From the NCBI GenBank assembly GCA_018027755.1, contig GCA_018027755.1_4098.1: a DNA stretch of 64,000 bases; one strand, written 5' to 3'. The notes beneath the pieces are model-generated. The model was given only the letters and a program-made list of their open reading frames with translations, ran no database searches and had not been told where the DNA came from. The position numbers were made by a program, and so were the translations under genes. Position 1 is the stretch's first letter. Each line of letters opens with the position of its first letter. Positions 1,126 to 55,262 of the stretch are shown here, in pieces. Source of the stretch: a phage.

Positions 1126-1251
<126 letters not shown>

Positions 1252-1649: not shown

Positions 1650-2351
1650 ATGGATGTTATGAAAGAGATTATGTACAATCTATACAAAAATAAAAAATCA
1701 AAGTTATCTACTAAAGATATCAATGAATGTAAAGAATTACCTTCTTATAACACATTACTGTTAAAGTATGGTTTTACATTATCTGAACTTAATAAAGAAT
1801 TTCGTGAAAGATATTATAATGAAAACCCAAAACTTTGTTTAATGTGCAACAAATCAATACCACTATGTAAAGGATTTGAAGAGAAGAAATTTTGCAATCA
1901 ATCTTGTGCTGCCAGTTATAACAACAAAGGTTATAACAGACATACTGGTGAAATTGTCAAAGATCAGTACTGTTTATCATGTAATACATTTCTCCCTAAA
2001 GGAAAAACCGATAGGAAGTATTGTGATTTGAAATGTCACAAACAGCACCAATATGACACTTATGTTCATGCCTGGCTTTCAGGTAATAAAATTGGTTGCA
2101 CTGGTAAGACTTGCCAAATTAGTAATTATGTGAGAAGATATCTACATGAAACACGCGGAACTGCATGTGAAGAGTGTGGATGGGATAAACGTCATCCAAC
2201 AGATGGTGCAGTACTGACAGAAGTTGAGCACATTGATGGTGATGCTACAAATAATGACCTACCAAATTTAAAAATCCTTTGCCCTAATTGTCATTCGATG
2301 ACACCAACATTCAGAGCAAGGAACAAGAACTCCGCAAGGAATCGTAAATAA
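1650..2351 (+). CDS. HNH homing endonuclease with zinc-ribbon Cys pairs
   Basis: C-terminal motif EVEHIDGD...NN...NLKILCPNCH; CxxC pairs upstream; directly downstream of the tRNA. Confidence 0.8.
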   Translation: MDVMKEIMYNLYKNKKSKLSTKDINECKELPSYNTLLLKYGFTLSELNKEFRERYYNENPKLCLMCNKSIPLCKGFEEKKFCNQSCAASYNNKGYNRHTGEIVKDQYCLSCNTFLPKGKTDRKYCDLKCHKQHQYDTYVHAWLSGNKIGCTGKTCQISNYVRRYLHETRGTACEECGWDKRHPTDGAVLTEVEHIDGDATNNDLPNLKILCPNCHSMTPTFRARNKNSARNRK

Positions 2352-2367: not shown

Positions 2368-2784
2368 ATGACATACAACATTGTTAAAATGGTGAACTAC
2401 GTATTAAAAAACAACGCATGGTCACTGCATGATGTACAATTAGAAGATATTGGTGAAGTTAGAGTTTTTTGCTATGATGGCGATTTGAACGAAACCACTG
2501 ATTTGAGTAAATGTTTTAATATTTTTCTTGGTTATGAAATCAATAATCATTTTTATTCATTTGATGTGTATTTTGAACGAGTTAAAATCAGAATTGCTAA
2601 TGTAAATAGTGATTATTATGACACTAGAATTGAATTGAATTTTGACGATATTGATACTGAAGAAAAATTCTTTCAGTACTGTCTCGTAAACGATCTAAAT
2701 GGATTAACATTTGATGACATTAGTGCTATCCTTAAAGTTCAAAGATTGATTCCAGAAGAGGTATTAAATCCGTTAAATGACTAG
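2368..2784 (+). CDS. hypothetical protein, paralog family A
   Basis: Shares C-terminal motif (FFQY..ND..GLT.D...AIL.V.RLI) with the ORFs at 2777, 3853 and 4271. Confidence 0.6.
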   Translation: MTYNIVKMVNYVLKNNAWSLHDVQLEDIGEVRVFCYDGDLNETTDLSKCFNIFLGYEINNHFYSFDVYFERVKIRIANVNSDYYDTRIELNFDDIDTEEKFFQYCLVNDLNGLTFDDISAILKVQRLIPEEVLNPLND

Positions 2785-3142
2785 TCTAATAGTACGTATA
2801 ATGCAAGATGTTTGTAATAACCTTTATACAGGCAATTTTGACGATCCGAACATAAAAATATTATGTTATGATGGTTTTACAATGGTACATCCAGCCTATT
2901 CAAATAATATCTACGTAGCATATACAGGTGAAAATCTATTATATCAATTTGATATATATAGTACAATGACAAAGATAATTTTGGATGCATCTAAACCAGC
3001 AATCTTTATTGCTTCTCATGATTACCATTACACTGAAGAATCACTATTTCAGTACTCAATGATTAATGACATTGGTGGGTTGACATTGGATGAGGTTAAT
3101 GCTATACTAGCTGTCTCACGTTTGGTTAAAACCCACAATTAG
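2777..3142 (+). CDS. hypothetical protein, paralog family A
   Basis: Paralogous C-terminal motif LFQYSMINDIGGLTLDEVNAILAVSRLV. Confidence 0.6.
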   Translation: MTSLIVRIMQDVCNNLYTGNFDDPNIKILCYDGFTMVHPAYSNNIYVAYTGENLLYQFDIYSTMTKIILDASKPAIFIASHDYHYTEESLFQYSMINDIGGLTLDEVNAILAVSRLVKTHN

Positions 3143-3151
3143 GAGATTCAT

Positions 3152-3343
3152 ATGTTCTGGAATTTATTATGCTTGTTTGGTCGTACATTGGTTCTTGCTA
3201 TTATTCATACACCTGGTATTCGTAATTATGTTTCTTATGAATTTAAGAAAAATTATCACAACAATACTGAAGTTCGTACAACTAAGATGTGCAAAGACTT
3301 CAAGGTAGATGTTCCACCATTCAAGAAGTACGAGGATGAATAA
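3152..3343 (+). CDS. hypothetical protein
   Basis: ORF in track; SD AGGAG upstream. Confidence 0.5.
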   Translation: MFWNLLCLFGRTLVLAIIHTPGIRNYVSYEFKKNYHNNTEVRTTKMCKDFKVDVPPFKKYEDE

Positions 3344-3627
3344 TGGAATTCATTGTTGCACCTGATGAACTTAAAACATTCACGTTCAGAGATAATAACA
3401 ATTATCCTTATACAAATCATTCATTGAATTCATTACATGTTATTGCAATCATTGCATCTGAATACAGGGATAATCCATGTATTGATTTTAAAACCACTGA
3501 TGGCGAATATACATGGGTGATCCCAAAAGATAAATATAGTTATCAAGGGGCAGTAGAAATTCGTGACTCGATTCTAAAACAAATCGAAGATGGAAATACT
3601 CATCCTAAACTAAACACTCAGTACTGA
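3343..3627 (+). CDS. hypothetical protein
   Basis: ORF in track; start overlaps previous stop. Confidence 0.5.
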   Translation: MEFIVAPDELKTFTFRDNNNYPYTNHSLNSLHVIAIIASEYRDNPCIDFKTTDGEYTWVIPKDKYSYQGAVEIRDSILKQIEDGNTHPKLNTQY

Positions 3628-3826
3628 AATCGTTTAACCCGATAGCTTCTAGTCAGTACTGATTCCTCCTTATGTATAGAAGCTATCACTTTTTTACGTA
3701 TAATGATATTACCCTCAAATTCATTATATTCGTTACCCTCTAACAGTATCTTTTTATTCCTCTTGGATGCTGTAATTTAGAAGTTGACTTTTTAACTTCT
3801 ACTGTGTTATACTTAAGGCTGATTCG

Positions 3827-3847
3827 ATGAATCGGCCTTTTTTCTTA
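3827..3847 (+). terminator. intrinsic terminator hairpin
   Basis: ggctgattcgatgaatcggcc followed by a T-run. Confidence 0.5.
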
Positions 3848-3852
3848 TATAG

Positions 3853-4281
3853 GTGAATGCAATGAGTTATTTGTTTACTTTAATTGATAAGTATGTTGAC
3901 ATTGTATACCGTCAAGTTTGTAGTGATACGTTTGAAACAAAAAACCCAATTAGAGATGGCATTTTTGATGTTGTCGTTGGATCATTTTTGAATGGATACA
4001 CAGAGACATTATACAACAGTAATAATATTTTTATTTCAGTTCAATCCAGACATACATCAGACTATGCTGTTAGCATTGATATTTGGGAAAATAATATAGA
4101 AATAGATATAACGGAACATACTAACATTCATGTTGATGATACATTTAATCAATTAACTGAAGAAATGTACTTGCAGTTGAATTTTGTACATGATCTTACA
4201 AATATCAGTTATGATACATTAAGGAAAATATGTTTTCTTAGTGGGGTGATCCGTAGTAATATGAGTAAGGATGGGAAGTGA
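3853..4281 (+). CDS. hypothetical protein, paralog family A
   Basis: GTG start at 3853 (ATG at 3862 is the alternative); family A C-terminal motif. Confidence 0.55.
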   Translation: MNAMSYLFTLIDKYVDIVYRQVCSDTFETKNPIRDGIFDVVVGSFLNGYTETLYNSNNIFISVQSRHTSDYAVSIDIWENNIEIDITEHTNIHVDDTFNQLTEEMYLQLNFVHDLTNISYDTLRKICFLSGVIRSNMSKDGK

Positions 4282-4699
4282 AATGTTAAAAATTCCACCT
4301 AAGTCGTTAACACATCTTATTGAATGTGGTGTAATATTTTCCGAAGGTGATACCTCATCATACACATTGGTCGATGAACCTTATAATTTTTCATACCAAT
4401 CTTATAAAAATAATTCTAAAATTTCTTGTAGATATGCTGAAAACATATTAATAGATGTTTCGTTACATAATGTTCCGAAATTTTACATTGATATCTTTGG
4501 TGATTCTTTGACAATTCGAACATATGATTATTTTATTAATAAAGACCTCTTGAGTCTTCCAATTGAACATGATACTATAGATTCAGAGATGTTCTTTCAG
4601 CTATCAACAGTTTACGATTTACAGGGTTTAACTGTTGAGCAGTTGAATGGAATATTTGAGATTTCACGAAACATACGAAGCAGGAATAAAAATGTCTAA
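4271..4699 (+). CDS. hypothetical protein, paralog family A
   Basis: C-terminal FFQLSTVYDLQGLTVEQLNGIFEISRNI. Confidence 0.55.
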   Translation: MGSEMLKIPPKSLTHLIECGVIFSEGDTSSYTLVDEPYNFSYQSYKNNSKISCRYAENILIDVSLHNVPKFYIDIFGDSLTIRTYDYFINKDLLSLPIEHDTIDSEMFFQLSTVYDLQGLTVEQLNGIFEISRNIRSRNKNV

Positions 4700-5102
4700 T
4701 ATTTTAAATGAAAAAACAGTTGATGTTGTTATTGGTGTTCTTAACACCGCAACTTCATTTCAGAAGAAACACAGTGTTGTATACTTTGGTGAAGATTGTT
4801 GGCTGAACTATACTAATAATTCGTTTATAATTCGTGTAGAGGCTGATGATATTGGATTAACCGTTCAGGTAGGATGTGCCAAAACTGACAAACAAATCAC
4901 TGTCATTGTTGATAAACTTACGTCTTCTTTTTATGATAGTATAGATGATTGTGAACACTATAGTTCAACATTTTATGATACAGAAGAAGAACATTTTATG
5001 GAAAGTACTGTTCAAGAGTTAGCTATTCCATATAAGCTAATGAAAGCCGTGAGTGATTTAATTTTAAAATATAAAAAAATAGGAGTTACTAATGCAATTT
5101 AA
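4692..5102 (+). CDS. hypothetical protein
   Basis: Track ORF 4647..5102; start moved to the internal ATG after AGGAATAAAA. Confidence 0.5.
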   Translation: MSNILNEKTVDVVIGVLNTATSFQKKHSVVYFGEDCWLNYTNNSFIIRVEADDIGLTVQVGCAKTDKQITVIVDKLTSSFYDSIDDCEHYSSTFYDTEEEHFMESTVQELAIPYKLMKAVSDLILKYKKIGVTNAI

Positions 5103-6485: not shown

Positions 6486-6827
6486 ATGAACTTAAGTTCA
6501 ACAATTCAGTACTTGAGCAGTAACTTCGAGAAAATTATTTCTCGCGGTGGGATGATTGTACACCCAGAAACAGAGGAAATGTACATCATTGGATTTGATA
6601 AAAATTCTTATGATCAAGTACTTGTAATTTCCAAGTTAGAAAGTTATAATGAAGTTGTTCAGTTTTGCTGTACCGAATTTGGTATATATATTAAAGACGC
6701 TGAAACTAATACAATTTCGCATTATTTTTACCACACACTGATGGGTACTAAAGACTTCGGCTTGAAGTTCGATGATTTAGTACAATGTCACTATATGTTT
6801 AAAACCTTCCCAGCTAGTGGGCATTAA
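6486..6827 (+). CDS. hypothetical protein
   Basis: ORF in track; SD AAGGAG upstream. Confidence 0.55.
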   Translation: MNLSSTIQYLSSNFEKIISRGGMIVHPETEEMYIIGFDKNSYDQVLVISKLESYNEVVQFCCTEFGIYIKDAETNTISHYFYHTLMGTKDFGLKFDDLVQCHYMFKTFPASGH

Positions 6828-6840
6828 GGAGTATATCAAT

Positions 6841-7629
6841 ATGAGCAACATTTTCTTCAAAACTATTTCTTTCAAAAAAGCATCTTACTCCTACGCCTAC
6901 GTTGATGGTAAAGTGCTTAATATTGTACTGGATGGTGTTGACGTACCAGTTGAATTTAAAACACATGAAGAAGCAGTTGAAGGTGCTAAAGAATTGAATT
7001 CAATTCTTAATGGTGAAGTAAGTCAAAAACAACATGTAAAATCTGATTTAGATGTACTTTTGGAAAAAATCAAAACTGGTGAAGTATTAGAAATTTTAGA
7101 CAACTGTAATGAAAAACTTCGTAATGTAGTTAATAATGTTCGTGACCAGATTCAAGAAAAAGCACTAGAGCAAGCATTCAAACATGTATCCAAGAATGCT
7201 GAATCTCGTATTGACGGTATGGTTAAAAATCTTGATGATGTACTATCTCATCTCTTTACTAAAGAATACGAACAAGAAGTTGAAGAAGAACCAGTAAAAG
7301 AAACTAAAAAAGAAAAACGTAGCTTTGGCTCAGGTGATGATGTGTTTGGTTTTACGAATGTCCGAACAAGTGCAGATGAACCAAAAGAAATTAGTGAGAT
7401 GCTCATTGGTGACATGACAACTAAGCAGCTTCGTAATGAAATTGACAAGTTTGTAACTAGTTGTATCAAATCAGAACGTGCACAAAGTATGTTTAAAAGC
7501 ATTAGTGAGAACTTTGGTCCAGAAGCAACTGAGCAGGCACTAACTGCATTTAAAGAATTGATTTATAATGTAGCCATTAGCAATCCAGATAAAACACTTG
7601 AAGAAGTTCTACGTGACAATTTCAAATAA
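6841..7629 (+). CDS. hypothetical acidic protein
   Basis: Track ORF 6817..7629; start moved to ATG after TAAGGAG. Confidence 0.55.
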   Translation: MSNIFFKTISFKKASYSYAYVDGKVLNIVLDGVDVPVEFKTHEEAVEGAKELNSILNGEVSQKQHVKSDLDVLLEKIKTGEVLEILDNCNEKLRNVVNNVRDQIQEKALEQAFKHVSKNAESRIDGMVKNLDDVLSHLFTKEYEQEVEEEPVKETKKEKRSFGSGDDVFGFTNVRTSADEPKEISEMLIGDMTTKQLRNEIDKFVTSCIKSERAQSMFKSISENFGPEATEQALTAFKELIYNVAISNPDKTLEEVLRDNFK

Positions 7630-7670: not shown

Positions 7671-8825
7671 TTATGCGTTGTAACCAACTATTACGACTGA
7701 GCAGTCAAGCGGTTCTACTACTTTAAGAATTACATTATCATCTTCATCCACTTGTATTTCACTATGAACTACATGATTGTCTGAAGAATATAATTGAACT
7801 TGTGGTAGTGCTTTACCATGTTCAGTTACTGGAACTGAGATAAAGTACATAGAGTCTTCACCGAGAACCCACTCACTTAAAGTATATTCTTTATGGAAAG
7901 GAGTAGTATGCAGTGTTTTTCCGATTATACTCAAAGAAACAGGTAAATTATCAGTTTGATACACAGTAATATTACCTTCTGCGTCTACAGAAAGATCTAC
8001 ACCAACTTGATATAAGTCACCACTGTATGCTTGAAGTGCTAAGTACTGTCCACGATCATGAACATCAAATGGAACAACCGCAGAAAATACACCTTCCGAA
8101 ACAGGTTCAAATTGGGATAGAAGAACTGATGTAACAAAATCAATATCCTCACCACTTTCAAGAACATCAAATTCCACCACTTTAGTGTTATAATATGGAG
8201 AAGTGAGCGTAGCAGTACCTTTCCCTGATTGTGTGATAACATCAACTGGAATTGTAAATGCATCATTAACAAATTGGGTAGTAAAGTATTCTGTCCCGTC
8301 TGGTAATACGATTGTTATTACCATACCGTTAGTATCAATTTCTGAACCAGTGTTGAATAATTTACCACTAATTGAGTCATTACCAACAAATACTGGTGAA
8401 ATGAGAATATTATCTATATCACGATCTATAATACCACATTCAGGTGTATACATATGATACAAGGTTTGTGAACTACCTAAAATTGTTTTATGTAGCATAA
8501 ATTTATATACAAATCCAGTATCAGTTTCTTGTGGCTCTTCAGAATATCCACGAACAAAGAAACAATTTTTATTAATTTCACTTAATAGTTGGTCATTAGT
8601 TTTATTGTAATTTAATAGATAACCTTTATTATCTTTAGTTGTTATTTGTACTTTACGATATATTATATTAGTTCTGGGATCAACTAAATCATATAATCTA
8701 TGGCTTCTTTGGCGATAGATTCTAATATTTTTTAGTCTAGTTCCATCGTTGAGGATTGCACCATCAACAACATAACCACATTCACCAAACTTATAGCGTC
8801 CAGCCGCAGCAATTGACCTTGACAT
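7671..8825 (-). CDS. hypothetical protein (384 aa)
   Basis: Long minus-strand ORF with GGAGGG SD upstream; the only minus-strand gene in the first 37 kb. Confidence 0.65.
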   Translation of the reverse strand: MSRSIAAAGRYKFGECGYVVDGAILNDGTRLKNIRIYRQRSHRLYDLVDPRTNIIYRKVQITTKDNKGYLLNYNKTNDQLLSEINKNCFFVRGYSEEPQETDTGFVYKFMLHKTILGSSQTLYHMYTPECGIIDRDIDNILISPVFVGNDSISGKLFNTGSEIDTNGMVITIVLPDGTEYFTTQFVNDAFTIPVDVITQSGKGTATLTSPYYNTKVVEFDVLESGEDIDFVTSVLLSQFEPVSEGVFSAVVPFDVHDRGQYLALQAYSGDLYQVGVDLSVDAEGNITVYQTDNLPVSLSIIGKTLHTTPFHKEYTLSEWVLGEDSMYFISVPVTEHGKALPQVQLYSSDNHVVHSEIQVDEDDNVILKVVEPLDCSVVIVGYNA

Positions 8826-12349: not shown

Positions 12350-12378
12350 TGACATAACAAATAATATGGAGTACAATG
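12350..12378 (+). promoter_or_regulatory. sigma70-type promoter
   Basis: ttgacataacaaataatatggagtacaat. Confidence 0.45.
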
Positions 12379-12416
12379 TGCTCCTAATTTAATTATCAGC
12401 TAAAAAGGAAAACATT

Positions 12417-12677
12417 ATGAAATCTATTCTCGTTGCAGTTAACCTGGTTGCTTCCCCATCTTTCAACTTCAAACAAGTTGTTGCTGATAATCTGAAGAAG
12501 ATCTGTCCAAACGCTGAATTAACTTTCTGTGTGTTTGATTCAGAAAAAGTAACTAAAGTTGATCTAAACTATCTTTTGAACGAAGTAAAAAGCGTTTCTG
12601 GTGAAAGTAACTTAAAAGTTCTTCATGATATTGCTGATGATTATGATGATACACTTGTAATTTCGGAGAAATTCTAA
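12417..12677 (+). CDS. hypothetical protein
   Basis: ORF in track; SD AAAGGAAAA upstream. Confidence 0.55.
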   Translation: MKSILVAVNLVASPSFNFKQVVADNLKKICPNAELTFCVFDSEKVTKVDLNYLLNEVKSVSGESNLKVLHDIADDYDDTLVISEKF

Positions 12678-12682
12678 ATAAA

Positions 12683-13102
12683 ATGTTTAGATTTCTTCAG
12701 TACTTAATCATTAAGTTCTTTGGTTATCATACGATTGAAGGAAAAGCTACACTTGCACATAAAATCTTTGTAGCATTATGTACGGGTGATTATGACGTAT
12801 TGAATAAGTACTGTAAATCGCAAGCATGTATTGATATAATGGCACTTCGTATCTATGAGTGCCAGTTCAATAGATATAATTTTTACCAGTACAGATTTGA
12901 TAAAGAAGAATTTGATAGCATCAAAATGCTAAAGAATTTATGTAACAATAAAAAGAATATGCATATATCAGAATTTGTTGCTTTGTATTTTTATTTAAAA
13001 AGTTCATTGTATATGAACACGATGCAAAGATTCGATACTAGAATTAATGTATTCACCGATAAAGAATTTTATATATACGATAAATTCTTAGATAAGGTTT
13101 AA
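12683..13102 (+). CDS. hypothetical protein
   Basis: ORF in track. Confidence 0.5.
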   Translation: MFRFLQYLIIKFFGYHTIEGKATLAHKIFVALCTGDYDVLNKYCKSQACIDIMALRIYECQFNRYNFYQYRFDKEEFDSIKMLKNLCNNKKNMHISEFVALYFYLKSSLYMNTMQRFDTRINVFTDKEFYIYDKFLDKV

Positions 13103-13103
13103 T

Positions 13104-13601
13104 ATGACAACTGTTTATATTGATAAACGATTAAATTTATTGATTACCGATTCTAGAGTTACGTCAACTATACCACGAAACTTATTTGGTTTTTTTCCAC
13201 TAAGACCAAAATATCAATATGGAGTTGTTAATCAAAAAACTTTATATGTACATGACCGTTTATTCAGTGCTAGTGGGGCAGTAAGTGAAATTGATAAAGT
13301 ACTGGATTGGTTAATTAATAAAGTACCAGTTATACCTGACAGAAAGTTAAGTTGCCATTGTGTGCTTCTTTCTAAAGATTATGTTATTCATATGATTTTA
13401 ACTAAAGGAAAGTTTATTAAAAAACTTGAATATCTACATGAAGACTACACTTTCTTTATGGGAAGTGGTGGAGAATACATGGTAGATGCTGCTATTCATG
13501 AAGAACATACAACTTTATATGATAAAGTGTTTAGTACTTTCATGGATGTGCATAACCATGATTGCTTCACAGATGATAATATTAATGTATATCGATTTTG
13601 A
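13104..13601 (+). CDS. hypothetical protein
   Basis: ORF in track. Confidence 0.5.
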   Translation: MTTVYIDKRLNLLITDSRVTSTIPRNLFGFFPLRPKYQYGVVNQKTLYVHDRLFSASGAVSEIDKVLDWLINKVPVIPDRKLSCHCVLLSKDYVIHMILTKGKFIKKLEYLHEDYTFFMGSGGEYMVDAAIHEEHTTLYDKVFSTFMDVHNHDCFTDDNINVYRF

Positions 13602-13622
13602 TTTCGTCATTAGGAGATGTAA

Positions 13623-14588
13623 GTGAAAAAGCTTGATTTAAATACAATTGCCGAAGAAGTTCTGGATGAATGTTTTGCTAATGAAGAAGTCAACACACTA
13701 GAAGCCTTAGATTTCGTTGAAGATAAAGATGAAAATGAAGGTAAAGTACAAAGCAGTTTCAAATATAATATTACACTTAAGCGACCACCAAATGTTTCCA
13801 ATGAAGATCTAATTCGTGATATTCAAGCTGGTATCAATGTAAAGAAAAACACTGAACTGTTAGTTCGTTACAATTATGGACTTATTATTGATGTAGCAAG
13901 TAAATGTACTTGTTATATCCCATTTGAAGATAAGATTTCATATGGTGTTGAGGGGTTCATGAGAGCACTAAAAACCTTTGATCTTAATAAGAATGTTAAG
14001 TTCATTACCTATGCTTCTTCTAGTATTTACATGACAGTCTATAACGAAAGTTCTGACGCTAACTATATGGTACACTTCCCACGTTATATGAGTGTTCATA
14101 AGATCAAAGTAAAAAGATTCTGCCAGGAATATATGCGTAAACATGGTGTTCGCCCAACTCCTGAAATAATCTCAGAGGGTACTGGGATTGAGATTCAGCA
14201 TGTTAATAATTGTTTGTTATTTCAAAGCGAATACACTTCGCTGGATGCACCATTAGACGGTGTTACAGATGGTACATTAGGTGACATTATTCATTCACCT
14301 GCTTCTGATTTTAACCTCAATGTTGATAGTATTCGTGCACCTTTACGTTATGCTATCAATGAACTGACTAACGAATTGAGTACTAAAGAACGTGAGATTA
14401 TCCAGCGTGTTCATGGTCTAGGTGAATATGAACCTGAAACGCTTCGTGAGATTGCTGATAATGGTTTTGTTGATGATAATGGAAAATATGTTAAATCCCG
14501 TTCATCAATACACCGAAAGTACAGTGAAGCTATGCAAAAGCTTAAGAAGCTAGTACTTGCAAAAGGGTACGAATACGAAGATTTCTAA
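13623..14588 (+). CDS. sigma-70 family RNA polymerase sigma factor
   Basis: GTG start after AGGAG; region-2-like segment (GVEGFMRALKTFDLNKNVKFITYASSSIYMTV) and region-4-like HTH (STKEREIIQRVHGL...TLREIA...RSSIHRKYSEAMQKLKK). Confidence 0.8.
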   Translation: MKKLDLNTIAEEVLDECFANEEVNTLEALDFVEDKDENEGKVQSSFKYNITLKRPPNVSNEDLIRDIQAGINVKKNTELLVRYNYGLIIDVASKCTCYIPFEDKISYGVEGFMRALKTFDLNKNVKFITYASSSIYMTVYNESSDANYMVHFPRYMSVHKIKVKRFCQEYMRKHGVRPTPEIISEGTGIEIQHVNNCLLFQSEYTSLDAPLDGVTDGTLGDIIHSPASDFNLNVDSIRAPLRYAINELTNELSTKEREIIQRVHGLGEYEPETLREIADNGFVDDNGKYVKSRSSIHRKYSEAMQKLKKLVLAKGYEYEDF

Positions 14589-15238: not shown

Positions 15239-15448
15239 ATGAATTCAGTAATCTTTTTAGTAGTCGCTTTCTCTGTTAATTCCGGTGTACAAATAACCCC
15301 AATGAATTCCATGAATCAATGCATAGCAGTACGTGATAGTACATACGAACAAGTAAACAAAGATATTTGGATTACAGTTAGTAAAGAACAAATGTGGTGT
15401 TACAATAGTAATACTAACACAAAGCTTATTGTAGGACAAACTCAATGA
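15239..15448 (+). CDS. secreted or membrane hypothetical protein
   Basis: N-terminal hydrophobic segment; SD AAGGAA upstream. Confidence 0.5.
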   Translation: MNSVIFLVVAFSVNSGVQITPMNSMNQCIAVRDSTYEQVNKDIWITVSKEQMWCYNSNTNTKLIVGQTQ

Positions 15449-15675
15449 GTTATGGCGTTCGTTTTGAGATTCGTTCTATTGTCATCAATGCAGAGAAACA
15501 AGTATCGTTGGATGGTGATATACGTGAAATTTATCTATCATGTATCCGTGCGAAATCTGAAGCAGATGCCTTAGTACAAATGTATAGTTTTAACTTTTCA
15601 AATGGATTCTATTTGGTACGAGTTATTGAAGTGAAAAAAGTACTTATTGGTTGTAGCATAGAAGGATTAATGTAA
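15445..15675 (+). CDS. hypothetical protein
   Basis: ORF in track. Confidence 0.5.
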   Translation: MSYGVRFEIRSIVINAEKQVSLDGDIREIYLSCIRAKSEADALVQMYSFNFSNGFYLVRVIEVKKVLIGCSIEGLM

Positions 15676-15676
15676 A

Positions 15677-16465
15677 ATGAGCACTATAGATGAACTGATT
15701 CGACGGAATTCAAAATATTACCAACCATCAGAAATTGTAGGTAACATTACCAAATCAGAGTTTGGTCCAAATACTCGAAAACTCATTCATGTAATGTCAC
15801 GTGATGGCTTTAAATGTGATTGTTGCGGTGAATCTAATGTAGTATTCACTTTACACAAGCACAGTACTAAAGATCGTTATAAATTCAGACCTTATGTACT
15901 TAAAGGGAAACGCCTTGTACGCATGACGTTAGACCATAATGTACTGGACTGTCTTCAGGGCGGTAATGATAAAGAGAACATGACTGCACTGTGTGAAGAT
16001 TGTAACGCATTACGCCAGCATAAGTTTGCTGAATACAGTGAGTTTAAACACTGGTATCATAACGCGGATCGTTCAATCGAGCCTGACGTTAACTACTGCT
16101 TCATTGAGTACATTAAGAATGCCAAAGATACATACATTCTTAAATCAATGTCACCTATTACCGTGTTTCCTGAGAACCTATTCACTACATTAAAGAATAG
16201 TTTTATTGTAGGTGATATTGATGCATTCAAGTATTTTGACAAAGGTGCAAAACATTTTGAAATTCAATGTCTTAGTACTGCACTATGTGAACTCATTAAA
16301 ATTTACATAAAAGAGTATTTGGGTATTGACAATGTACGTGTACCAGAGTATACTTTTTCTATTGAATTCGATTGTGAATCAATCAAAGAGTTTGGAATTC
16401 TTTTCAATAAACAAATAGAACTTGCAATTCAAAACGAAATCAAGTACTATACTACTAACATTTAA
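15677..16465 (+). CDS. HNH endonuclease
   Basis: CDCCGE...LDHNVLDCLQGGND.EN..ALCEDCN motif. Confidence 0.7.
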   Translation: MSTIDELIRRNSKYYQPSEIVGNITKSEFGPNTRKLIHVMSRDGFKCDCCGESNVVFTLHKHSTKDRYKFRPYVLKGKRLVRMTLDHNVLDCLQGGNDKENMTALCEDCNALRQHKFAEYSEFKHWYHNADRSIEPDVNYCFIEYIKNAKDTYILKSMSPITVFPENLFTTLKNSFIVGDIDAFKYFDKGAKHFEIQCLSTALCELIKIYIKEYLGIDNVRVPEYTFSIEFDCESIKEFGILFNKQIELAIQNEIKYYTTNI

Positions 16466-19004: not shown

Positions 19005-19205
19005 ATGTTTACTTTATATCTTGCAGTAGTACTAACTAATGGTGAAATCACTCGCACCGTTGGTGAAGGTGTATATAAAACACCTGATCAGTGTTACTCT
19101 GTAACTCATTGGCCTCGTGATGCTGGTGATGAATCTCGCACTGAATACAAATGTATGAAGGTTAAAGGTGACTTTGTAAATCTAAAGGTTATTGAGACTA
19201 AGTAA
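19005..19205 (+). CDS. hypothetical protein
   Basis: ORF in track. Confidence 0.5.
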   Translation: MFTLYLAVVLTNGEITRTVGEGVYKTPDQCYSVTHWPRDAGDESRTEYKCMKVKGDFVNLKVIETK

Positions 19206-19723
19206 TGGATATTAATGAGTTGTTGAAATTAGTGTTTAATCGTGAACGCCGCGATACAAGACCAATTGAATATCAAGATGTGATACGCATTGAAACTGAT
19301 TTCTGTTATGGTAAAACAACTCATGACCTTTTGAATCTCTCTGGAAAACGCTATGCTGATGTTTGTTTTTCAGAGAGAAGTGATGGTTCGGAAATAACGA
19401 GTACTGATATTGTTTGTTACGCACGCAGTGCTGATAAATCTTATGAAATAGAACTTATATATTCCCCTAGTTCTAAAACAAATCATCACCGCCATATTTT
19501 ATATGATGTTTACACACCACCTGGTATTGCTGAATATTTTGTTATTGATTATAGTACTGAAGAAAATGTGTTTCAACAAAGTTTGATTCATAACTTTGAG
19601 GTTAATGATCCATTAGTGCCAAAGTTATTCAAACTACTTGACACCATCGATGTTGATTTTGAATTTGTTATGTGTATTAGAACTTCTTTATTCAATGAAT
19701 TCATGGAACTTTTTAATATATGA
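19205..19723 (+). CDS. hypothetical protein
   Basis: ORF in track. Confidence 0.5.
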   Translation: MDINELLKLVFNRERRDTRPIEYQDVIRIETDFCYGKTTHDLLNLSGKRYADVCFSERSDGSEITSTDIVCYARSADKSYEIELIYSPSSKTNHHRHILYDVYTPPGIAEYFVIDYSTEENVFQQSLIHNFEVNDPLVPKLFKLLDTIDVDFEFVMCIRTSLFNEFMELFNI

Positions 19724-21352: not shown

Positions 21353-21679
21353 ATGCTATCAGTACTAATTTCAATTCCGTCTTTAATTCTGATTTGGCTT
21401 CTGGTTTACGAATGCTTTATTACTGATGATAATGATAAAAAAGAGTTCTCTGAGTTGTTTATGCTTGATTCACCGATTGTGCGTATTTTCTATACAGTCG
21501 TTGTGGTTTCAGTAATTGTATGGGTTTTGAGTTTTATCTTCCCACTCGGTGCAGTAGTTAAAACTTTGGATTTAGTTGAGAACTTTGTTGCAATTATGTG
21601 GCTAATCAAAGCACTATTTGCAGGAAATGTTAAAATTTGGATTGATATTATCAAATTCAAGTTCACGAATAAGATGTAA
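21353..21679 (+). CDS. membrane protein
   Basis: Several TM segments; SD GAGGTAAAAAAT upstream. Confidence 0.55.
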   Translation: MLSVLISIPSLILIWLLVYECFITDDNDKKEFSELFMLDSPIVRIFYTVVVVSVIVWVLSFIFPLGAVVKTLDLVENFVAIMWLIKALFAGNVKIWIDIIKFKFTNKM

Positions 21680-21757
21680 CAGTCAAAATACCTCTATAGT
21701 ATTAAATACTTCTGTACATATATATAGTACAGAAGTATTTCTCGTTAGAGGTTTGTT

Positions 21758-22117
21758 ATGAAAAGTTATATAAAATTAATAGCACTTGTGTGTGCATTAT
21801 TTTCATGTTTTAGTTATGGTGCAGCAGCAGAAACATATTGTCGTAGTACTAAGGGAACGTGGCATGTATTGACTAACGACCCTAGAAATGGTAAAAATAT
21901 AGTTGTTGATGGCGTGATTTATCGTTTTAAAGTAGAAAGTATTATTGGTAATAAAAAAATCTCGACTTATAGAGATGATTCTGGTACATTAGCAAACGTA
22001 ATATTAATTGTAGACCCAAGAACTGGTAATGGTGATATCTATATAGTAATTTACTTGGACTCATCGGTACGCCGTGACCTAGATATAGATAAATTGAACT
22101 TACACTGTGAAATATAG
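21758..22117 (+). CDS. small secreted protein
   Basis: Signal peptide ...CFSYGAAAE; Cys near both ends. Confidence 0.55.
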   Translation: MKSYIKLIALVCALFSCFSYGAAAETYCRSTKGTWHVLTNDPRNGKNIVVDGVIYRFKVESIIGNKKISTYRDDSGTLANVILIVDPRTGNGDIYIVIYLDSSVRRDLDIDKLNLHCEI

Positions 22118-22128
22118 GACTTAAAAAA

Positions 22129-22506
22129 ATGGTAAACACTATTTTACTTTTGTTGTTGAATATTCCAATTATTCTGTCTTTTTTAATTTCTATTTTTATG
22201 GCAGGATATTGTTTAGTTGCAGTAATTCATTTTATTTTAACAAACAAATATGTCCTAATTTCTAAGCTTGATTCTATTTTTGCTTGCGATTCAATGGCTT
22301 ATAACTTATGGTTAATTTGTTCTTGCATTATGGGAGTAACTTTCCTTCTGCATGTATTTGATGTCCTTGACCAAAAGTTCGTATACATCAGTACTGGATT
22401 GGCTCTTTATCCTGCTACGTGGTACTTGATTTACGTTGGTGATATATGGTATAGTACTTATAAAGAATATCAGTACAAGAAATCACTTAACGTTGGAGGA
22501 AAATAA
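22129..22506 (+). CDS. membrane protein
   Basis: Several TM segments. Confidence 0.5.
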   Translation: MVNTILLLLLNIPIILSFLISIFMAGYCLVAVIHFILTNKYVLISKLDSIFACDSMAYNLWLICSCIMGVTFLLHVFDVLDQKFVYISTGLALYPATWYLIYVGDIWYSTYKEYQYKKSLNVGGK

Positions 22507-22508
22507 TC

Positions 22509-22859
22509 ATGAAAATTATTTTATTTTTTGTATGTATGTTAATGTGTGGATTGTCATATGCTGAACCATTGGAAGGTTTAGTTTGTACAGATGGTAATAT
22601 TAAACATATCTATCAAGGTGATAGTGACGATCGAGATATTGTATATATTGATGGACAATCATATACGTTTGTTAAAGAGCATACAGTAGGCGACATTAGC
22701 TTCACTGAGTTTTCTAACGACACAGACCCTAACTTCTTAGCGTTTATTGAAGTAGATGTATATGAAGATAGTAATGGTACACAATATGCTAAATTAGTTA
22801 TGATGCGTCGTGGTGCTAAAGAAACTAGTTTTGGTGGCTTGTGTAAATATAAGGATTGA
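22509..22859 (+). CDS. small secreted protein
   Basis: Signal peptide ...GLSYAEP; Cys near both ends. Confidence 0.55.
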   Translation: MKIILFFVCMLMCGLSYAEPLEGLVCTDGNIKHIYQGDSDDRDIVYIDGQSYTFVKEHTVGDISFTEFSNDTDPNFLAFIEVDVYEDSNGTQYAKLVMMRRGAKETSFGGLCKYKD

Positions 22860-24525: not shown

Positions 24526-24747
24526 ATGAAATATATAGTACTTGTACTGATATTATTCAGTACTGTTGTAAGTGCTAAACAAAAAGAATATATTAAATGT
24601 ATAAATTATGAAGAGAAATATGTTGAAACATATAAAAAAAGTATAATTAAAAACGTTTCGATTACTAACAGAGCAACAATCATTGTACTTAAAAATGGGT
24701 TAATTATGCTATATAAACCACACGTTAAATGTGAAATTATTAATTGA
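24526..24747 (+). CDS. small secreted protein
   Basis: Signal peptide ...STVVSAKQ. Confidence 0.5.
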   Translation: MKYIVLVLILFSTVVSAKQKEYIKCINYEEKYVETYKKSIIKNVSITNRATIIVLKNGLIMLYKPHVKCEIIN

Positions 24748-24754
24748 GGAAATT

Positions 24755-25327
24755 ATGAATCGTAAAGGTCGTTTTAAAGTATCAAAAAAGAACAAAAGTT
24801 CTAGGTTTAAACATATTGTTTTAACAGTTAAATCTAACAAAGATTTAACTGCACTTAGTAAAAAGATAATTTCATCTAAGATTGAAGTATCATACGTAAA
24901 TTCATTAAAATATATGAATGTCAAACCACTGGACCAACTCATTTCACTTATATTTGAACGTAATGATTTTGAGATATCAGTAGATGATTATAGAGCCTAT
25001 AATGCTGGTTTCATTAATGTTACTTGTAATAAAAAACTAACTGAGTTGGAAAATTTGTCATGTATAATAAATCTAGATAAAGGTGTTGTGAAGTACCATT
25101 TTGTACATTTCACTAATATCAATAATGGAATGGGTGTACAATCCAGACCTATAGTGCCTACGTGTGATGTTACTAAATTAGCAAAGCTCAATGATGAAGA
25201 ATATTTTCAAGAAAGCATTGTAACTGAGCATTTAGATGATATAATAGCTACTTACAAAGAATGCATATGGGTGTTGAATGCTATAAAACCTAAATTGTGT
25301 TTAATGAATATTGTTCGTGATTTATGA
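24755..25327 (+). CDS. hypothetical basic protein
   Basis: Track ORF 24731..25327; start moved to ATG after GAGGAAATT. Confidence 0.5.
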   Translation: MNRKGRFKVSKKNKSSRFKHIVLTVKSNKDLTALSKKIISSKIEVSYVNSLKYMNVKPLDQLISLIFERNDFEISVDDYRAYNAGFINVTCNKKLTELENLSCIINLDKGVVKYHFVHFTNINNGMGVQSRPIVPTCDVTKLAKLNDEEYFQESIVTEHLDDIIATYKECIWVLNAIKPKLCLMNIVRDL

Positions 25328-26350: not shown

Positions 26351-26464
26351 ATGCAAGGTTTGAAATTTGTAGTTGCTGCACTCATCGCTGCTGTTGTAGT
26401 GGGTACAGTATGTTATTCAATTGACACCTATATCAATACACCTAGTGTTGAACAAACCAAATAA
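26351..26464 (+). CDS. small membrane peptide (37 aa)
   Basis: Short ORF MQGLKFVVAALIAAVVVGTV... after GAGG; not in track. Confidence 0.3.
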   Translation: MQGLKFVVAALIAAVVVGTVCYSIDTYINTPSVEQTK

Positions 26465-26472
26465 GGGATATC

Positions 26473-27029: not shown

Positions 27030-27040
27030 TGGTATAGTAC

Positions 27041-27622: not shown

Positions 27623-27626
27623 AAAT

Positions 27627-54602: not shown

Positions 54603-55262
54603 ATGAAACTTAATGCACACAGCAAACAATACCTTAAGCACTTTAAGTACCTCAACAGTATTCAAGCAGAATCTTTTACACCAGCATATACGTATCACCC
54701 TAATGTACTAAAGAAACGAAATAAAAAGAAAAAATCCAGAAATGTTCTCGTATCTAAGAACCTCAAATCGTACTTGAAGAAAAATAATATAGCTCTTGCT
54801 TTTATTAATATCTATAATACTGATTTAAAAGTATTGAGTACTAATACCAGCACAAAAGCACTAAAGAATGCATCTATCTATATACACATGGATAATATCC
54901 CGTGCACTATAATTCTATCTTTCGGGAATGTATACTTCTTCGGGAATTGTAATAGCACCCATGATATCAGTACTGCACAATTCCAAATCGGAGATATGTA
55001 CTGCATGGGTTCAGAAAAAATACACGATAACATGCACTTCTTCCAAAAGCAACGTACTAACGAAACTGATACAGTACTGCAATTCCTCAAAGAATTACAA
55101 AACAAAGAATTATCCGAGGAAGAAGAATTCATGTACAGTACTGTAATCGATAATCCAGAACTCTATAAAAACGCGTACAAACTAACAAAACATGTACAGG
55201 AACTTATCAGTACTGATAAGAAATTTCATCACCTCATTACGTATATTTCAAACTATGTATAA
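54603..55262 (+). CDS. hypothetical protein (219 aa) embedded in the small-ORF array
   Basis: Larger ORF unrelated to the array family; SD AAAGGAAACCAA upstream. Confidence 0.55.
   Translation: MKLNAHSKQYLKHFKYLNSIQAESFTPAYTYHPNVLKKRNKKKKSRNVLVSKNLKSYLKKNNIALAFINIYNTDLKVLSTNTSTKALKNASIYIHMDNIPCTIILSFGNVYFFGNCNSTHDISTAQFQIGDMYCMGSEKIHDNMHFFQKQRTNETDTVLQFLKELQNKELSEEEEFMYSTVIDNPELYKNAYKLTKHVQELISTDKKFHHLITYISNYV

What the first reader, a model, noticed from the sequence alone, without database searches (positions are those of the whole stretch)
2368..4699. Four-member paralog family A sharing a C-terminal motif
The ORFs at 2368, 2777, 3853 and 4271 (~120-142 aa) share a C-terminal block (F/L)FQ(Y/L)..(N/Y)D..GLT.(D/E)...AIL.V.RLI with divergent N-terminal parts. 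This is another local tandem expansion in the same mosaic region as the tRNA and an HNH gene.
Basis: seen in the sequence. Interest (0 to 1): 0.35.

Follow-up and report, generated by a model that had tools for sequence, protein, structure and literature searches.

The report
Jumbo-phage multigene family, unknown function
The four small genes are true relatives of each other, and they are the visible edge of a family of 35-45 or more small acidic proteins, all of unknown function, that makes up roughly 6-8% of the genes of this giant E. coli phage and no public database recognises as one family.

Summary
The four ORFs (2368-2784, 2777-3142, 3862-4281, 4283-4699; two starts corrected) are significant homologues over their whole length, not only at the C-terminus.

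The window is an Asteriusvirus-type jumbo coliphage (PBECO4/121Q group, about 350 kb). "Four-member family" understates what is there:
- A profile of the family finds 35-45 ORFs in a near-identical complete genome, and none in reversed or shuffled controls. This includes the head-to-tail array that Hua et al. 2017 mentioned for 121Q as ">30 very similar genes".
- A C-terminal-module profile built only from paralogues elsewhere in the genome recovers the four ORFs plus 4692-5102, 19205-19723, 24731-25327 and 54603-55262.
- The shared core is (S/T)EEx(F/Y)FQxS(T/L)(V/I)xD at the start of a two-helix module.
- Distant relatives occur only in Rak2-like jumbo phages (RaK2/K64-1, Munch/7t3).

The proteins are acidic (median pI 4.45) and have no transmembrane segment or conserved catalytic residues. 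The AF2 model shows an N-terminal helix, a seven-strand beta-meander and C-terminal helices, with no significant PDB match. The genes lie in a block rich in consensus sigma-70 promoters and are under purifying selection. Pfam has nothing, and PHROGs splits 45 paralogues into 37 unknown-function families.

The most likely role, which is inferred and not shown, is early non-enzymatic binder proteins for host takeover or counter-defence. Interest is moderate to low.

The parts
2368..2784 (+). Paralogue 1 (138 aa, pI 4.3). C-terminal two-helix module at aa 97-128, nt 2656-2751.
   Evidence: ORF and alignment. phrog_17453 at E=3e-54. AF2 model pLDDT 82, pTM 0.77. Module coordinates. AAGG Shine-Dalgarno 7 nt upstream.
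2777..3142 (+). Paralogue 2 (121 aa, pI 4.7). Module at aa 86-117, nt 3032-3127. Its start overlaps the stop of paralogue 1 (ATGACTAG), which suggests translational coupling.
   Evidence: phrog_17453 at 2e-56; module profile 3e-10.
3862..4281 (+). Paralogue 3 (139 aa, pI 4.6), the most divergent of the four. Module at aa 99-130, nt 4156-4251.
   Evidence: phrog_35192 at 4e-98. Leave-one-out E=1.2e-4. Module profile 3e-6. Start from the Shine-Dalgarno sequence and the orthologue calls.
4283..4699 (+). Paralogue 4 (138 aa, pI 4.9). Module at aa 100-131, nt 4580-4675. It starts 1 nt after the stop of paralogue 3 (TGAAATG).
   Evidence: phrog_17453 at 1.5e-11. Leave-one-out 1e-11. Module profile 3e-8. 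Start.
4692..5102 (+). Fifth, divergent member (136 aa, pI 4.7; phrog_24027). Module TEEEHFMESTVQEL... at nt 4980-5075. Its start overlaps the stop of paralogue 4 (ATGTCTAA).
   Evidence: Iterated profile E=2.3e-5 before its own inclusion. Independent module profile 5.7e-7. hhalign supports the motif only (E=0.0025, probability 12%). The AF2 model is unusable (pLDDT 42). Membership is therefore probable, not proven.
19205..19723 (+). Probable sixth member (172 aa, pI 4.7; phrog_28118). Module TEENVFQQSLIHNF... at nt 19556-19651.
   Evidence: Iterated profile E=1-2e-4 before its own inclusion. Module profile 1.2e-6..
24731..25327 (+). Longer, basic (pI 9.1) protein carrying the module core (NDEEYFQESIV, nt 25190-25285). 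One of a 'basic subfamily' with a Lys-rich N-terminal extension.
   Evidence: Module profile 6.8e-5. Full-length profile only 0.014-0.046. phrog_33518. Only module-level relatedness is shown.
37195..37857 (+). Basic (pI 9.2) protein resembling 24731-25327, with a weak copy of the module core (SSDLMFQYSLIH, nt 37699-37794).
   Evidence: Module profile E=0.045, which is marginal. Found by the regex. phrog_34359. Unresolved.
54603..55262 (+). Basic-type 219-aa protein carrying the module core (SEEEEFMYSTVID, nt 55113-55208).
   Evidence: Module profile 1.8e-5. phrog_29152. Sequence.
1195..1222 (+). Perfect sigma-70 consensus promoter (TTGACA-16-TATAAT). It is the nearest strong promoter upstream of tRNA-Thr, the HNH gene and paralogues 1-2.
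   Evidence: No transcript data, so this is inferred.
3815..3839 (+). Intrinsic terminator (11-bp stem plus U6) that separates the first pair's transcription unit from the second cluster. A second hairpin plus U6 lies at 3641-3687.
   Evidence: RNA fold z=-6.9. G17 and UE-S1 annotate a terminator at the same place.

Best explanation
The four ORFs are bona fide protein-coding paralogues. They form two translationally coupled clusters, 2368+2777 and 3862+4283(+4692).

They belong to a large superfamily specific to Rak2-like jumbo phages, with at least 35-45 genes per Asteriusvirus genome. Its members are small (about 110-220 aa), acidic, soluble, single-domain alpha/beta proteins.

The fold predicted for paralogue 1 is an N-terminal helix, a seven-strand antiparallel beta-meander, and a C-terminal pair of helices.

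The shared 'C-terminal motif' is that helix pair:
- The (S/T)EE and (L/I)(T/S)x(D/E)(D/E) elements look like helix N-caps.
- The (F/Y)F...(T/L)(V/I) and I..I/L residues form hydrophobic faces that would pack on the sheet.
- One Gln is nearly invariant.

No catalytic-type residue is conserved, so the proteins are most likely non-enzymatic.

What is shown: homology, family size, phage-clade restriction, acidity, purifying selection, and location in a block rich in consensus sigma-70 promoters.

What is inferred: the genes are transcribed early by host RNA polymerase. The paralogues act as a diversified set of stoichiometric binders or inhibitors of host, or competing-element, macromolecules for host takeover or counter-defence. 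In this picture the conserved helices serve as the structural scaffold and the variable beta-sheet face and loops serve as the specificity surface.
For: Homology:
-.

Superfamily size, with controls:
- 35 ORFs at E<1e-3 with the non-iterated profile and 40 with one iteration.
- No hits in reversed or shuffled ORF sets.
- All hits lie on the + strand.
- A near-contiguous array at about 57-86 kb of the sister genome has EEx(Y/F/L)FQxS in about 40 ORFs.
- In the 40-paralogue alignment, F and Q are at least 90% conserved.

Clade restriction:
- An exhaustive profile search of 1.84e9 cluster representatives returned 39 proteins of about 125-175 aa, one of them a repeat-protein false positive.
- tblastn places distant members in RaK2/K64-1/Muenster and Munch/7t3/PHA46.
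- At least 12 profile-positive ORFs lie in 40 kb of RaK2, and at least 4 in Munch.

Protein properties:
- Fold: AF2 pLDDT 82, pTM 0.77.
- Acidity: median pI 4.45, with 40 of 46 members below pI 5.
- No conserved catalytic residue: only Q103 is nearly invariant across 46 sequences.

Functional genes:
- dN/dS against UE-S1 is 0.45, 0.05, 0.39, 0.19 and 0.30.

Early-type block:
- 30 sigma-70 matches of at least 11/12, against 6.6+/-2.3 expected.
- 19 of them are on the + strand within 1-34 kb, and nine are perfect.
- The phage sigma factor lies in the same block (13623-14588).
- The CBB paper assigns the syntenic block of short ORFs, RpoD-like promoters and the sigma factor to early host-takeover genes (PMC5259590).
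- PA5oct, a relative, depends on host RNAP and expresses blocks of small unknown ORFs early from TTGAC/TATAAT promoters (PMC7318152).

Not virion proteins:
- Family members in RaK2 are annotated 'hypothetical', while MS-detected neighbours ORF182 and ORF233 are annotated 'virion structural protein' (MS/MS analysis described in PMC3622015).
- The array core is all 'hypothetical' in phAPEC6, 121Q and PBECO4.

Weak context hint:
- One metagenomic member lies three genes from an Acb2/Tad1-hairpin anti-defence gene.
Against: - No member has any experimental or annotated function: Pfam, NCBIfam, PADLOC, PDB sequence search and PDB fold search are all negative.
- Early expression is inferred from promoter consensus and synteny. 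There are no transcript data for this phage.
- The second cluster sits just behind a terminator, and its own promoter is unclear: the only candidate is a 10/12 match at 3784-3813 that abuts the terminator stem.
- Target binding, the scaffold role of the helices and the specificity role of the sheet are inference. The model's coordinates could not be inspected, so burial of the motif residues was not verified.
- Only one paralogue has a confident model. The attempt on ORF 4692 failed.
- For many array members only the C-terminal part aligns to the profile, so full-domain homology across the whole superfamily is not demonstrated.
Confidence: 0.4

Rival explanations
1. Adaptor model. The conserved C-terminal helical module is a docking element for one common partner, such as a host or phage protease, RNA polymerase or sigma factor, or a chaperone. 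The variable N-terminal part selects different cargoes. This would be analogous in logic to poxvirus Ank-PRANC/F-box proteins.
For: - Conservation is extremely asymmetric across 40 paralogues: F and Q of the motif are at least 90% conserved, while overall column identity is 10%.
- The module also occurs on longer, basic proteins with a different N-terminal region: 24731, 54603 and perhaps 37195.
- The motif is an acidic-aromatic helix, a common type of protein-protein contact (general knowledge).
Against: - AF2 predicts a single compact domain (pTM 0.77), with its highest pLDDT values (91-94) over residues 91-120, which cover the first motif helix and the start of the second. That fits a core element rather than a free docking helix.
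- The conserved positions are mostly hydrophobic or helix-capping residues.
- No partner is known, and no fusions to known domains were found.
Confidence: 0.15
2. Genome 'stuffer'. The paralogues are products of tandem duplication that fill headful capacity after capsid enlargement, as in the ratchet idea of Hua et al. 2017, and have little or no specific function.
For: - Hua et al. interpret the array of more than 30 genes in 121Q as tandem duplication contributing to genome expansion (PMC5646251).
- Array content varies between close relatives, with 58-100% coverage.
- Three of the five genes evolve faster than their neighbours.
Against: - dN/dS is below 0.5 for all five tested.
- The paralogues are ancient (10-35% identity), yet all keep open reading frames and the motif.
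- Orthologues hold their position across genera.
- Every hit is on the coding strand, with compact coupled gene junctions.
Confidence: 0.1
3. Virion-packaged internal, inner-body or ejected proteins, by analogy with the paralogous inner-body proteins of phiKZ and the T4 internal proteins. The shared motif would be a packaging or processing signal.
For: - 121Q shows a phiKZ-like inner-body bubblegram whose proteins are unidentified (PMC5646251).
- Paralogous families with one short shared signal are typical of such proteins (general knowledge).
- Two virion proteins are encoded close by, at 6817-7629 and 7671-8825.
Against: - No family member carries a virion annotation in RaK2, PBECO4, 121Q or phAPEC6, although those records label virion proteins elsewhere.
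- The genes lie in the sigma-70-promoter-rich block, not in the late structural block.
- The motif is inside a confidently predicted helix, not a terminal peptide.
Confidence: 0.07
4. p32/MAM33-like acidic oligomeric chaperone or scaffold. The proteins would form doughnut-like acidic oligomers that bind basic partners, such as nucleic-acid-binding proteins.
For: - The order of secondary-structure elements matches: one N-terminal helix, seven antiparallel strands, C-terminal helices. The proteins are also strongly acidic.
- Six of the 12 best Foldseek PDB hits, and nine of the 50 listed, are p32/gC1qR/p22-family entries.
Against: - Those hits are not significant: E of at least 0.03, TM 0.26-0.34, rmsd 8-18 A.
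- No Pfam hit of any kind at E<=1, so no MAM33 hit either.
- The proteins are about 40 residues shorter than p32.
- Oligomeric state was not tested.
Confidence: 0.08
5. The similarity is chance or compositional, and the ORFs are not related genes.
For: The genome is AT-rich with many small ORFs. The 3853/2368 pair alone is weak (E=0.026).
Against: Leave-one-out and independent-profile tests are clean against reversed and shuffled controls. Orthologues are conserved in dozens of genomes.
Confidence: 0.01

Closest known systems
Tandem array of '>30 very similar genes' in phage 121Q (Hua et al. 2017, mBio, PMC5646251)
   Same: Same phage genus. The profile-positive array at about 57-86 kb of the sister genome EC22.5-2 maps to 121Q 169.6-179.7 kb. 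A C-terminal profile built mostly from these array genes recovers the four ORFs of the finding.
   Different: The paper gives one sentence and no family definition, motif, fold or function. The four ORFs lie outside that array, on the far side of the genome map, and are very divergent from it (10-25% identity). That this array is the one the paper meant is my inference.
PHROG families phrog_17453 and phrog_35192 (plus phrog_24027, 9317, 12674, 13866 and about 30 others)
   Same: ORFs 2368, 2777 and 4283 match phrog_17453, and ORF 3862 matches phrog_35192, at E=1e-11 to 1e-98.
   Different: PHROGs lists them as separate families of unknown function. 45 paralogues of one genome fall into 37 PHROGs, so the superfamily relationship is not captured there.
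Lineage-specific expansions of small proteins in other jumbo phages, such as the ~35-copy zinc-ribbon expansion in Bacillus phage G (Iyer et al. 2021, PMC7824862) and the roughly 10% paralogous gene products noted for RaK2 (PMC3622015)
   Same: The same evolutionary phenomenon: massive intragenomic duplication of a small domain in a jumbo phage, with function unknown or only speculated.
   Different: A different fold and sequence family. Here the proteins are acidic alpha/beta, with no metal-binding or DNA-binding signature.
p32/gC1qR/MAM33 acidic proteins
   Same: The same order of secondary-structure elements and a strongly acidic character.
   Different: No significant structural or sequence match (TM about 0.3, E>=0.03, no Pfam hit). 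A resemblance only.

Membership tests
phrog_17453 / phrog_35192 (PHROGs, unknown function) | Significant full-length match to the family profile | tested here: met
   2368: 2.8e-54 over 1-129/129. 2777: 2.1e-56. 4271/4283: 1.5e-11 to phrog_17453. 3853/3862: 3.8e-98 to phrog_35192.
EE-x-(F/Y)-F-Q-x-S superfamily of Rak2-like jumbo phages (defined here; includes the 121Q tandem array) | C-terminal two-helix module with core (S/T)EEx(F/Y)FQxS, detected by a profile built without the query genes | tested here: met
   A module profile from 34 paralogues elsewhere in the EC22.5-2 genome recovers the four at 3e-10, 3e-8, 5e-7 and 3e-6. Controls give no hit below 0.5.
EE-x-(F/Y)-F-Q-x-S superfamily of Rak2-like jumbo phages | A common fold over the whole protein (N-terminal helix, beta-meander, helix pair) in all members | tested here: inconclusive
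   There is a confident model only for ORF 2368. BFVD matches to RaK2, CBB, GAP32 and PBECO4 unknowns reach TM 0.4-0.63. The model of ORF 4692 failed (pLDDT 42). Many array members align only over the C-terminal half.
p32 / MAM33 (Pfam PF02330) fold family | Significant sequence or structure match to p32-family proteins | tested here: not met
   No Pfam hit at E<=1. Best Foldseek PDB hit 6szw_B has E=0.033, TM 0.32/0.27, rmsd 15.8 A.
Type III secretion chaperone-like (SycT) | Significant sequence match | tested here: not met
   2bho_A matches at E=1 over the N-terminal 46 residues only. It is absent when the broader profile is used.
Virion / inner-body proteins of Rak2-like phages | Detected in purified virions (MS) or annotated as virion structural | tested here: not met
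   None of the family ORFs carries such an annotation in RaK2, PBECO4, 121Q or phAPEC6, while neighbouring genes do. This rests on the depositors' annotations, not on raw MS data.
Known anti-defence proteins (Acr, Ocr/Arn-type DNA mimics, Acb/Tad sponges) | Homology to a characterised anti-defence family, or demonstrated inhibition of a defence system | not testable with these tools
   No anti-defence library was available. Pfam, which includes Acb2_Tad1 and several Acr families, gives no hit. AcrF1 is only a chance-level fold hit (E=0.84). A functional test needs experiments.
Early (host-RNAP-transcribed) gene class | Transcription within minutes of infection from sigma-70 promoters | not testable with these tools
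   Indirect evidence only: 4.5-fold excess of near-consensus sigma-70 promoters, oriented with the genes, and synteny with the proposed early region of CBB.

The most novel reading that the evidence does not exclude
The EE-x-FFQ-x-S superfamily, about 6-8% of the phage's genes, could be a combinatorial 'adaptor repertoire'. In this reading the invariant C-terminal acidic-aromatic helix plugs every paralogue into one common host or phage machine, such as a protease, RNA polymerase or sigma factor, or a chaperone. The hypervariable beta-sheet domain of each paralogue would capture a different host defence or housekeeping protein. That would be a bacterial-virus counterpart of the poxvirus Ank/F-box (PRANC) arrays, and a rich untapped source of specific inhibitors of E. 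coli proteins.
Probability: 0.12. Interest if true: 0.8.

Novelty: new member of a known kind. Interest (0 to 1): 0.38.

Why it matters
Jumbo phages devote much of their extra DNA to genes of unknown function. A single domain family accounting for 35-45 or more genes in each Asteriusvirus genome, with at least a dozen in RaK2, is one of the biggest blocks of that unknown material in an E. coli-infecting, genetically tractable phage group.

Recognising that dozens of separate 'hypothetical' PHROGs are one superfamily turns them into one testable problem. The superfamily has a defined motif, a confident fold model, an early-type genomic setting and purifying selection. Possible tests include cluster deletions, motif mutants and interaction screens against E. 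coli proteins.

If the proteins are diversified inhibitors, they are a candidate reservoir of new host-takeover or anti-defence factors. If they are functionless duplicates, they bear on how capsid enlargement ratchets genome size.

For the scan itself, the finding as written (four local paralogues) is real but ordinary.

Tried and rejected
Searches that found no function:
- Pfam, NCBIfam and PADLOC scans of the four ORFs, of 46 relatives and of 45 genome paralogues gave nothing meaningful.
- PDB sequence search with two profiles found nothing (SycT at E=1, thiamin pyrophosphokinase at E=0.4).
- Foldseek against PDB found nothing significant; the p32-family hits have TM about 0.3.
- Foldseek against BFVD returned only uncharacterised proteins of Rak2-like phages.
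- The last wide protein search with the 40-paralogue alignment found no domain fusions or named proteins, and the diffuse profile had low power.
- Literature searches found no functional work or transcriptome for Asteriusvirus or RaK2. They gave only generic remarks on paralogues and the one-sentence mention of the 121Q array.
- Rfam on the window found only the tRNA.

Searches that failed technically:
- The search for related loci on viral contigs failed twice because no stretch was conserved enough. Once it found pattern hits but none confirmed by tblastn.
- Contig look-ups for distant metagenomic members returned contigs too short (0.9-2.4 kb) for context.

Tests of whether ORF 4692 belongs to the family:
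- hhalign of ORF 4692's orthologue alignment against the superfamily supports only a 25-residue motif match (probability 12%).
- AF2 on ORF 4692 gave pLDDT 42, which is unusable, so I ran no further search on it.

Ideas considered and dropped:
- HTH or DNA-binding role for the helix pair: the proteins are acidic, there is no basic surface signature and no Pfam HTH hit.
- The motif as a protease site: its resemblance to the TEV site ENLYFQ/S is superficial. The motif lies within a high-confidence helix, and the T4-type prohead proteases of these phages cleave after Glu (own knowledge).
- The motif as a beta-clamp-binding or SSB-tail-like peptide: the consensus does not fit.
Full report
**What the window is.** The window is AT-rich (about 34% G+C) and packed with small, same-strand ORFs. 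It carries one tRNA-Thr at 1519-1593. Megablast of 1500-7700 hits 37 phage records. Twenty-one of them are 95-99% identical, and all are jumbo coliphages or Salmonella phages of about 350 kb in the genus Asteriusvirus: PBECO4, 121Q, phAPEC6, G17, Sharanji and others. In most of them the match starts at window position about 2358. The HNH gene at 1650-2351 (PF01844 at E=7e-4; phrog_1271 at 4e-22) is therefore an insertion between tRNA-Thr and the first ORF of the finding. In G17 and UE-S1 the tRNA is followed directly by that ORF.

**Checking the observation.** The four ORFs are there and they align.
- Pairwise BLASTP gives 7e-16 (2368/2777), 9e-6 (2368/4271), 1e-6 (2777/4271), 3e-3 (3853/4271) and 0.026 (2368/3853).
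- In a leave-one-out test, a profile of any three finds the fourth among all 561 six-frame ORFs of the window at 1.7e-9, 1.4e-10, 1.2e-4 and 1e-11. The next best ORF scores 0.02-0.2.
- The alignments run over the whole length. Besides the C-terminal block there is a central conserved NI...(Y/F)x(I/F)D(I/V)(Y/F/W) block.
- Two starts need correction. ATG 3862 is preceded by AGGTGA, and ATG 4283 is preceded by AGGATGGGA. Both fit the gene calls in G17 and UE-S1 and the database proteins.
- The gene junctions are compact: ATGACTAG (2368/2777), TGAAATG (3862/4283) and ATGTCTAA (4283/4692). This points to translational coupling.
- Between the two clusters lie two unrelated small ORFs (3152, 3343) and a strongly structured spacer with two hairpin-plus-U6 terminators.

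**The family is much larger than four.**
- PHROGs puts 2368, 2777 and 4283 in phrog_17453 and puts 3862 in phrog_35192. There are weak C-terminal hits to several other unknown-function PHROGs.
- A word-indexed search of 5.8e9 proteins found only orthologues in E. coli jumbo-phage contigs, all 'hypothetical'.
- An exhaustive HMMER search of 1.84e9 cluster representatives with a 17-sequence profile returned 39 proteins. One is a repeat-protein false positive. The rest are 125-175 aa and share (L)TEEx(F/Y)FQ(M/L/Y)Sx(V/L)YD...(L/I)(T/S)..(E/D)(L/I).
- tblastn places distant members in Klebsiella phages RaK2, K64-1 and Muenster and in Salmonella phages Munch, 7t3 and PHA46, all Rak2-like jumbo phages.
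- In 40 kb of RaK2, syntenic with our window (tRNA cluster, HNH, small ORFs, virion protein, sigma factor), at least 12 ORFs are profile-positive at E<1e-3. These include ORF226-228 directly downstream of tRNA-Thr. Munch has at least 4.

**Whole-genome count.** I assembled the complete genome of a phage that is about 98-99% identical to the window over most matched segments (EC22.5-2, OR845138.1). The window maps onto it colinearly.
- The non-iterated superfamily profile finds 35 ORFs at E<1e-3, and 43 at E<1e-2. A once-iterated profile finds 40.
- The same ORFs reversed or shuffled give zero hits.
- All 35 hits at E<1e-3 are on the + strand, against 56% of all ORFs.
- The hits form a near-contiguous head-to-tail array at about 57-86 kb, where about 40 of about 50 ORFs show EEx(Y/F/L)FQxS. 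Smaller groups lie at 98-99, 139, 152, 303-310, 315 and 319 kb. The five genes at 320.9-323.7 kb correspond to the finding plus ORF 4692.
- In an alignment of 40 paralogues only the F and Q of the motif reach 90% conservation. Mean column identity is 10%.

**Independent test on the window.** I built a profile of the C-terminal module from the 34 paralogues that lie elsewhere in the genome, excluding the orthologues of the window's candidates. In the window it recovers:

| ORF | E-value |
|---|---|
| 2777 | 3e-10 |
| 4283 | 3e-8 |
| 2368 | 5e-7 |
| 4692-5102 | 6e-7 |
| 19205-19723 | 1e-6 |
| 3862 | 3e-6 |
| 54582/54603-55262 | 2e-5 |
| 24731-25327 | 7e-5 |
| 37195-37857 | 0.045 (marginal) |

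Controls give nothing below 0.5.

ORF 4692 also reaches E=2e-5 with the full-length iterated profile before its own inclusion. However, hhalign supports only the motif and its AF2 model failed, so I call it a probable member. The three longer ORFs (24731, 37195, 54603) are basic (pI about 9 for the two computed) and have a Lys-rich N-terminal extension. They are shown to share the module only.

**Prior knowledge.**
- Hua et al. [quoted passage not shown] The array I detect maps to 121Q 169.6-179.7 kb. It is presumably that array, but this identification is my inference.
- The RaK2 paper notes that nearly 10% of its gene products are paralogues (PMC3622015).
- Neither paper, nor the later genome papers I read, defines the family, its motif, its fold or a function.
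- Pfam covers none of the 45 paralogues. PHROGs splits them into 37 families of unknown function.

**What the proteins look like.**
- The AF2 model of ORF 2368, built with the 17-sequence alignment, is confident (pLDDT 81.8, pTM 0.77). Its elements are helix 5-15, strands 23-25, 29-37, 42-44, 51-58, 61-68, 71-78 and 84-91, and helices 92-95, 98-107, 115-125 and 130-133.
The model's highest confidence (block means 91-94) covers residues 91-120, that is the first motif helix and the start of the second.
- Reading the sequence, (S/T)EE and (L/I)(T/S)x(D/E)(D/E) look like helix N-capping boxes. The conserved F, F, (T/L), (V/I) and I..(I/L) positions give each helix a hydrophobic face. This is what a core helical hairpin packed on a sheet would show. 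It is inference, because I could not inspect the coordinates.
- Only Gln103 is nearly invariant across 46 relatives. No His, Cys, Ser, Lys or Arg is conserved, so an enzyme is unlikely.
- The family is acidic, with median pI 4.45 and 40 of 46 members below pI 5. The window members' GRAVY values (-0.29 to 0.08) give no sign of membrane segments.
- Foldseek against PDB gives nothing significant. Six of the 12 best hits (nine of the 50 listed) are p32/gC1qR/p22 proteins, which share the order of elements and the acidity, but with TM about 0.3 and E of at least 0.03.
- BFVD matches are uncharacterised proteins of RaK2, PBECO4, CBB and GAP32.

**Are they real, functional genes, and when are they expressed?**
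- Against UE-S1, dN/dS is 0.45, 0.05, 0.39, 0.19 and 0.30 for 2368, 2777, 3862, 4283 and 4692. Four non-family neighbours give 0.05-0.15. Selection is therefore purifying, and more relaxed for three of the five members.
- Orthologues of 2368 carry a hypervariable acidic or Cys-rich insert just before the module.
- The window contains 30 sigma-70 matches of at least 11/12, against 6.6+/-2.3 expected. Twenty-four are on the + strand, 19 lie in the 1-34 kb + strand block, and nine are perfect.
- The same block encodes the phage sigma factor (13623-14588).
- In CBB the syntenic block of short ORFs with RpoD-like promoters and the sigma factor was proposed to be the early host-takeover region (PMC5259590).
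- In the related PA5oct, which depends on host RNAP, blocks of small unknown ORFs are early genes. TTGAC/TATAAT-type promoter motifs were identified at its transcription start sites (PMC7318152).
- No family member is annotated as a virion protein in RaK2, PBECO4, 121Q or phAPEC6, although neighbouring genes are.
- One metagenomic member lies three genes from an Acb2/Tad1-hairpin gene. This is a single, weak hint of an anti-defence neighbourhood.

**Interpretation.**
- Shown: a real paralogue set; membership of a very large superfamily restricted to Rak2-like phages; an acidic, soluble, probably non-enzymatic alpha/beta domain; purifying selection; an early-type genomic setting; absence from annotated virion proteomes.
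- Inferred: early expression and a role as diversified stoichiometric binders of host or competitor macromolecules (host takeover or counter-defence). In this picture the conserved helix pair is the scaffold and the variable sheet and loops are the specificity surface.
- I give the functional part about 0.35-0.4 and the descriptive part more than 0.9.
- Rivals are an adaptor model with a common docking helix (0.15), functionless duplication 'stuffer' (0.1), a p32-like acidic oligomeric chaperone (0.08), packaged internal proteins (0.07) and chance (0.01).

**Verdict.** The finding is correct as an observation but under-described. It is ordinary as a 'local four-gene family' and somewhat more interesting as an outlier cluster of a 35-45-member superfamily that no database treats as a unit. 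There is no evidence of a new kind of system and no mechanism can be demonstrated, so interest is moderate to low (0.38).

Noticed in passing
window 1650-2351; also 15415-16456 and 26389-27677: There are three window-specific insertions relative to the near-identical phage EC22.5-2. One is the HNH endonuclease gene between tRNA-Thr and the first paralogue. One is a Cys-rich 262-aa ORF (15677-16465) with no Pfam hit. One is an HNH_3+NUMOD4 homing endonuclease (27080-27622). They look like mobile homing-endonuclease genes that differ between sister phages.
   Followed up: partly
window 3625-3860: The intergenic spacer folds far better than shuffles (z=-6.9). It has two hairpin-plus-U6 terminators (3641-3687 and 3815-3839) and a TATAAT at about 3699 between them. 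This could be a roughly 130-nt small transcript. G17 annotates a 25-aa ORF there. No Rfam family matches.
   Followed up: partly
window 1-34000, + strand: Near-consensus sigma-70 promoters (at least 11/12 matches) are 4.5-fold over-represented: 30 against 6.6 expected, nine of them perfect TTGACA-N16/17-TATAAT. Almost all are oriented with the genes.
   Followed up: yes
window 29944-30979 and 34713-37152: Two tandem arrays of small (104-141 aa) multi-pass membrane-protein paralogues. Most end in a similar R..(I/L/M/V)P(E/D/N)(K/R/E) tail. This is a separate multigene family.
   Followed up: no
window 21353-22859 and 26733-27029: Signal-peptide-bearing small paralogues (21758-22117, 22509-22859, 26733-27029) are interleaved with small membrane ORFs (21353-21679, 22129-22506). 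This looks like another repeated two-gene module.
   Followed up: no
window 41055-42424 and 45500-46867: Both segments match the same 1.37-kb stretch of EC22.5-2 (12373-13744) at about 90% identity. This indicates an internal duplication in the minus-strand gene block of this phage.
   Followed up: no
orthologues of window 2368-2784 (P0071, P0088, P0104, P0109): A hypervariable low-complexity insert rich in Asp, Glu, Asn, Tyr or Cys (for example DYDNDDDVDYDNEDYE and CDHEDYECDHEECECECEDD) sits between the last beta-strand and the conserved module. Its length differs between sister phages.
   Followed up: no
locus L005 (Logan SRR33371454 contig), 71-295 and 1601-2026: A distant family member (P0135) lies three genes downstream of a gene with a Pfam Acb2_Tad1_hairpin hit (anti-CBASS/anti-Thoeris sponge) on a 2.4-kb metagenomic contig.
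   Followed up: no
window 24731-25327, 37195-37857, 54603-55262: Three longer (198-220 aa) proteins with Lys-rich N-terminal regions carry the same C-terminal EE-x-FQ-x-S core; the two whose pI was computed (24731 and 37195) are basic (pI about 9). They may be a basic subfamily or a case of module sharing.
   Followed up: partly
window 13623-14588: Phage-encoded sigma-70-family sigma factor (regions 2, 3 and 4). It is syntenic with the sigma factor genes of RaK2 (ORF244) and Munch.
   Followed up: partly
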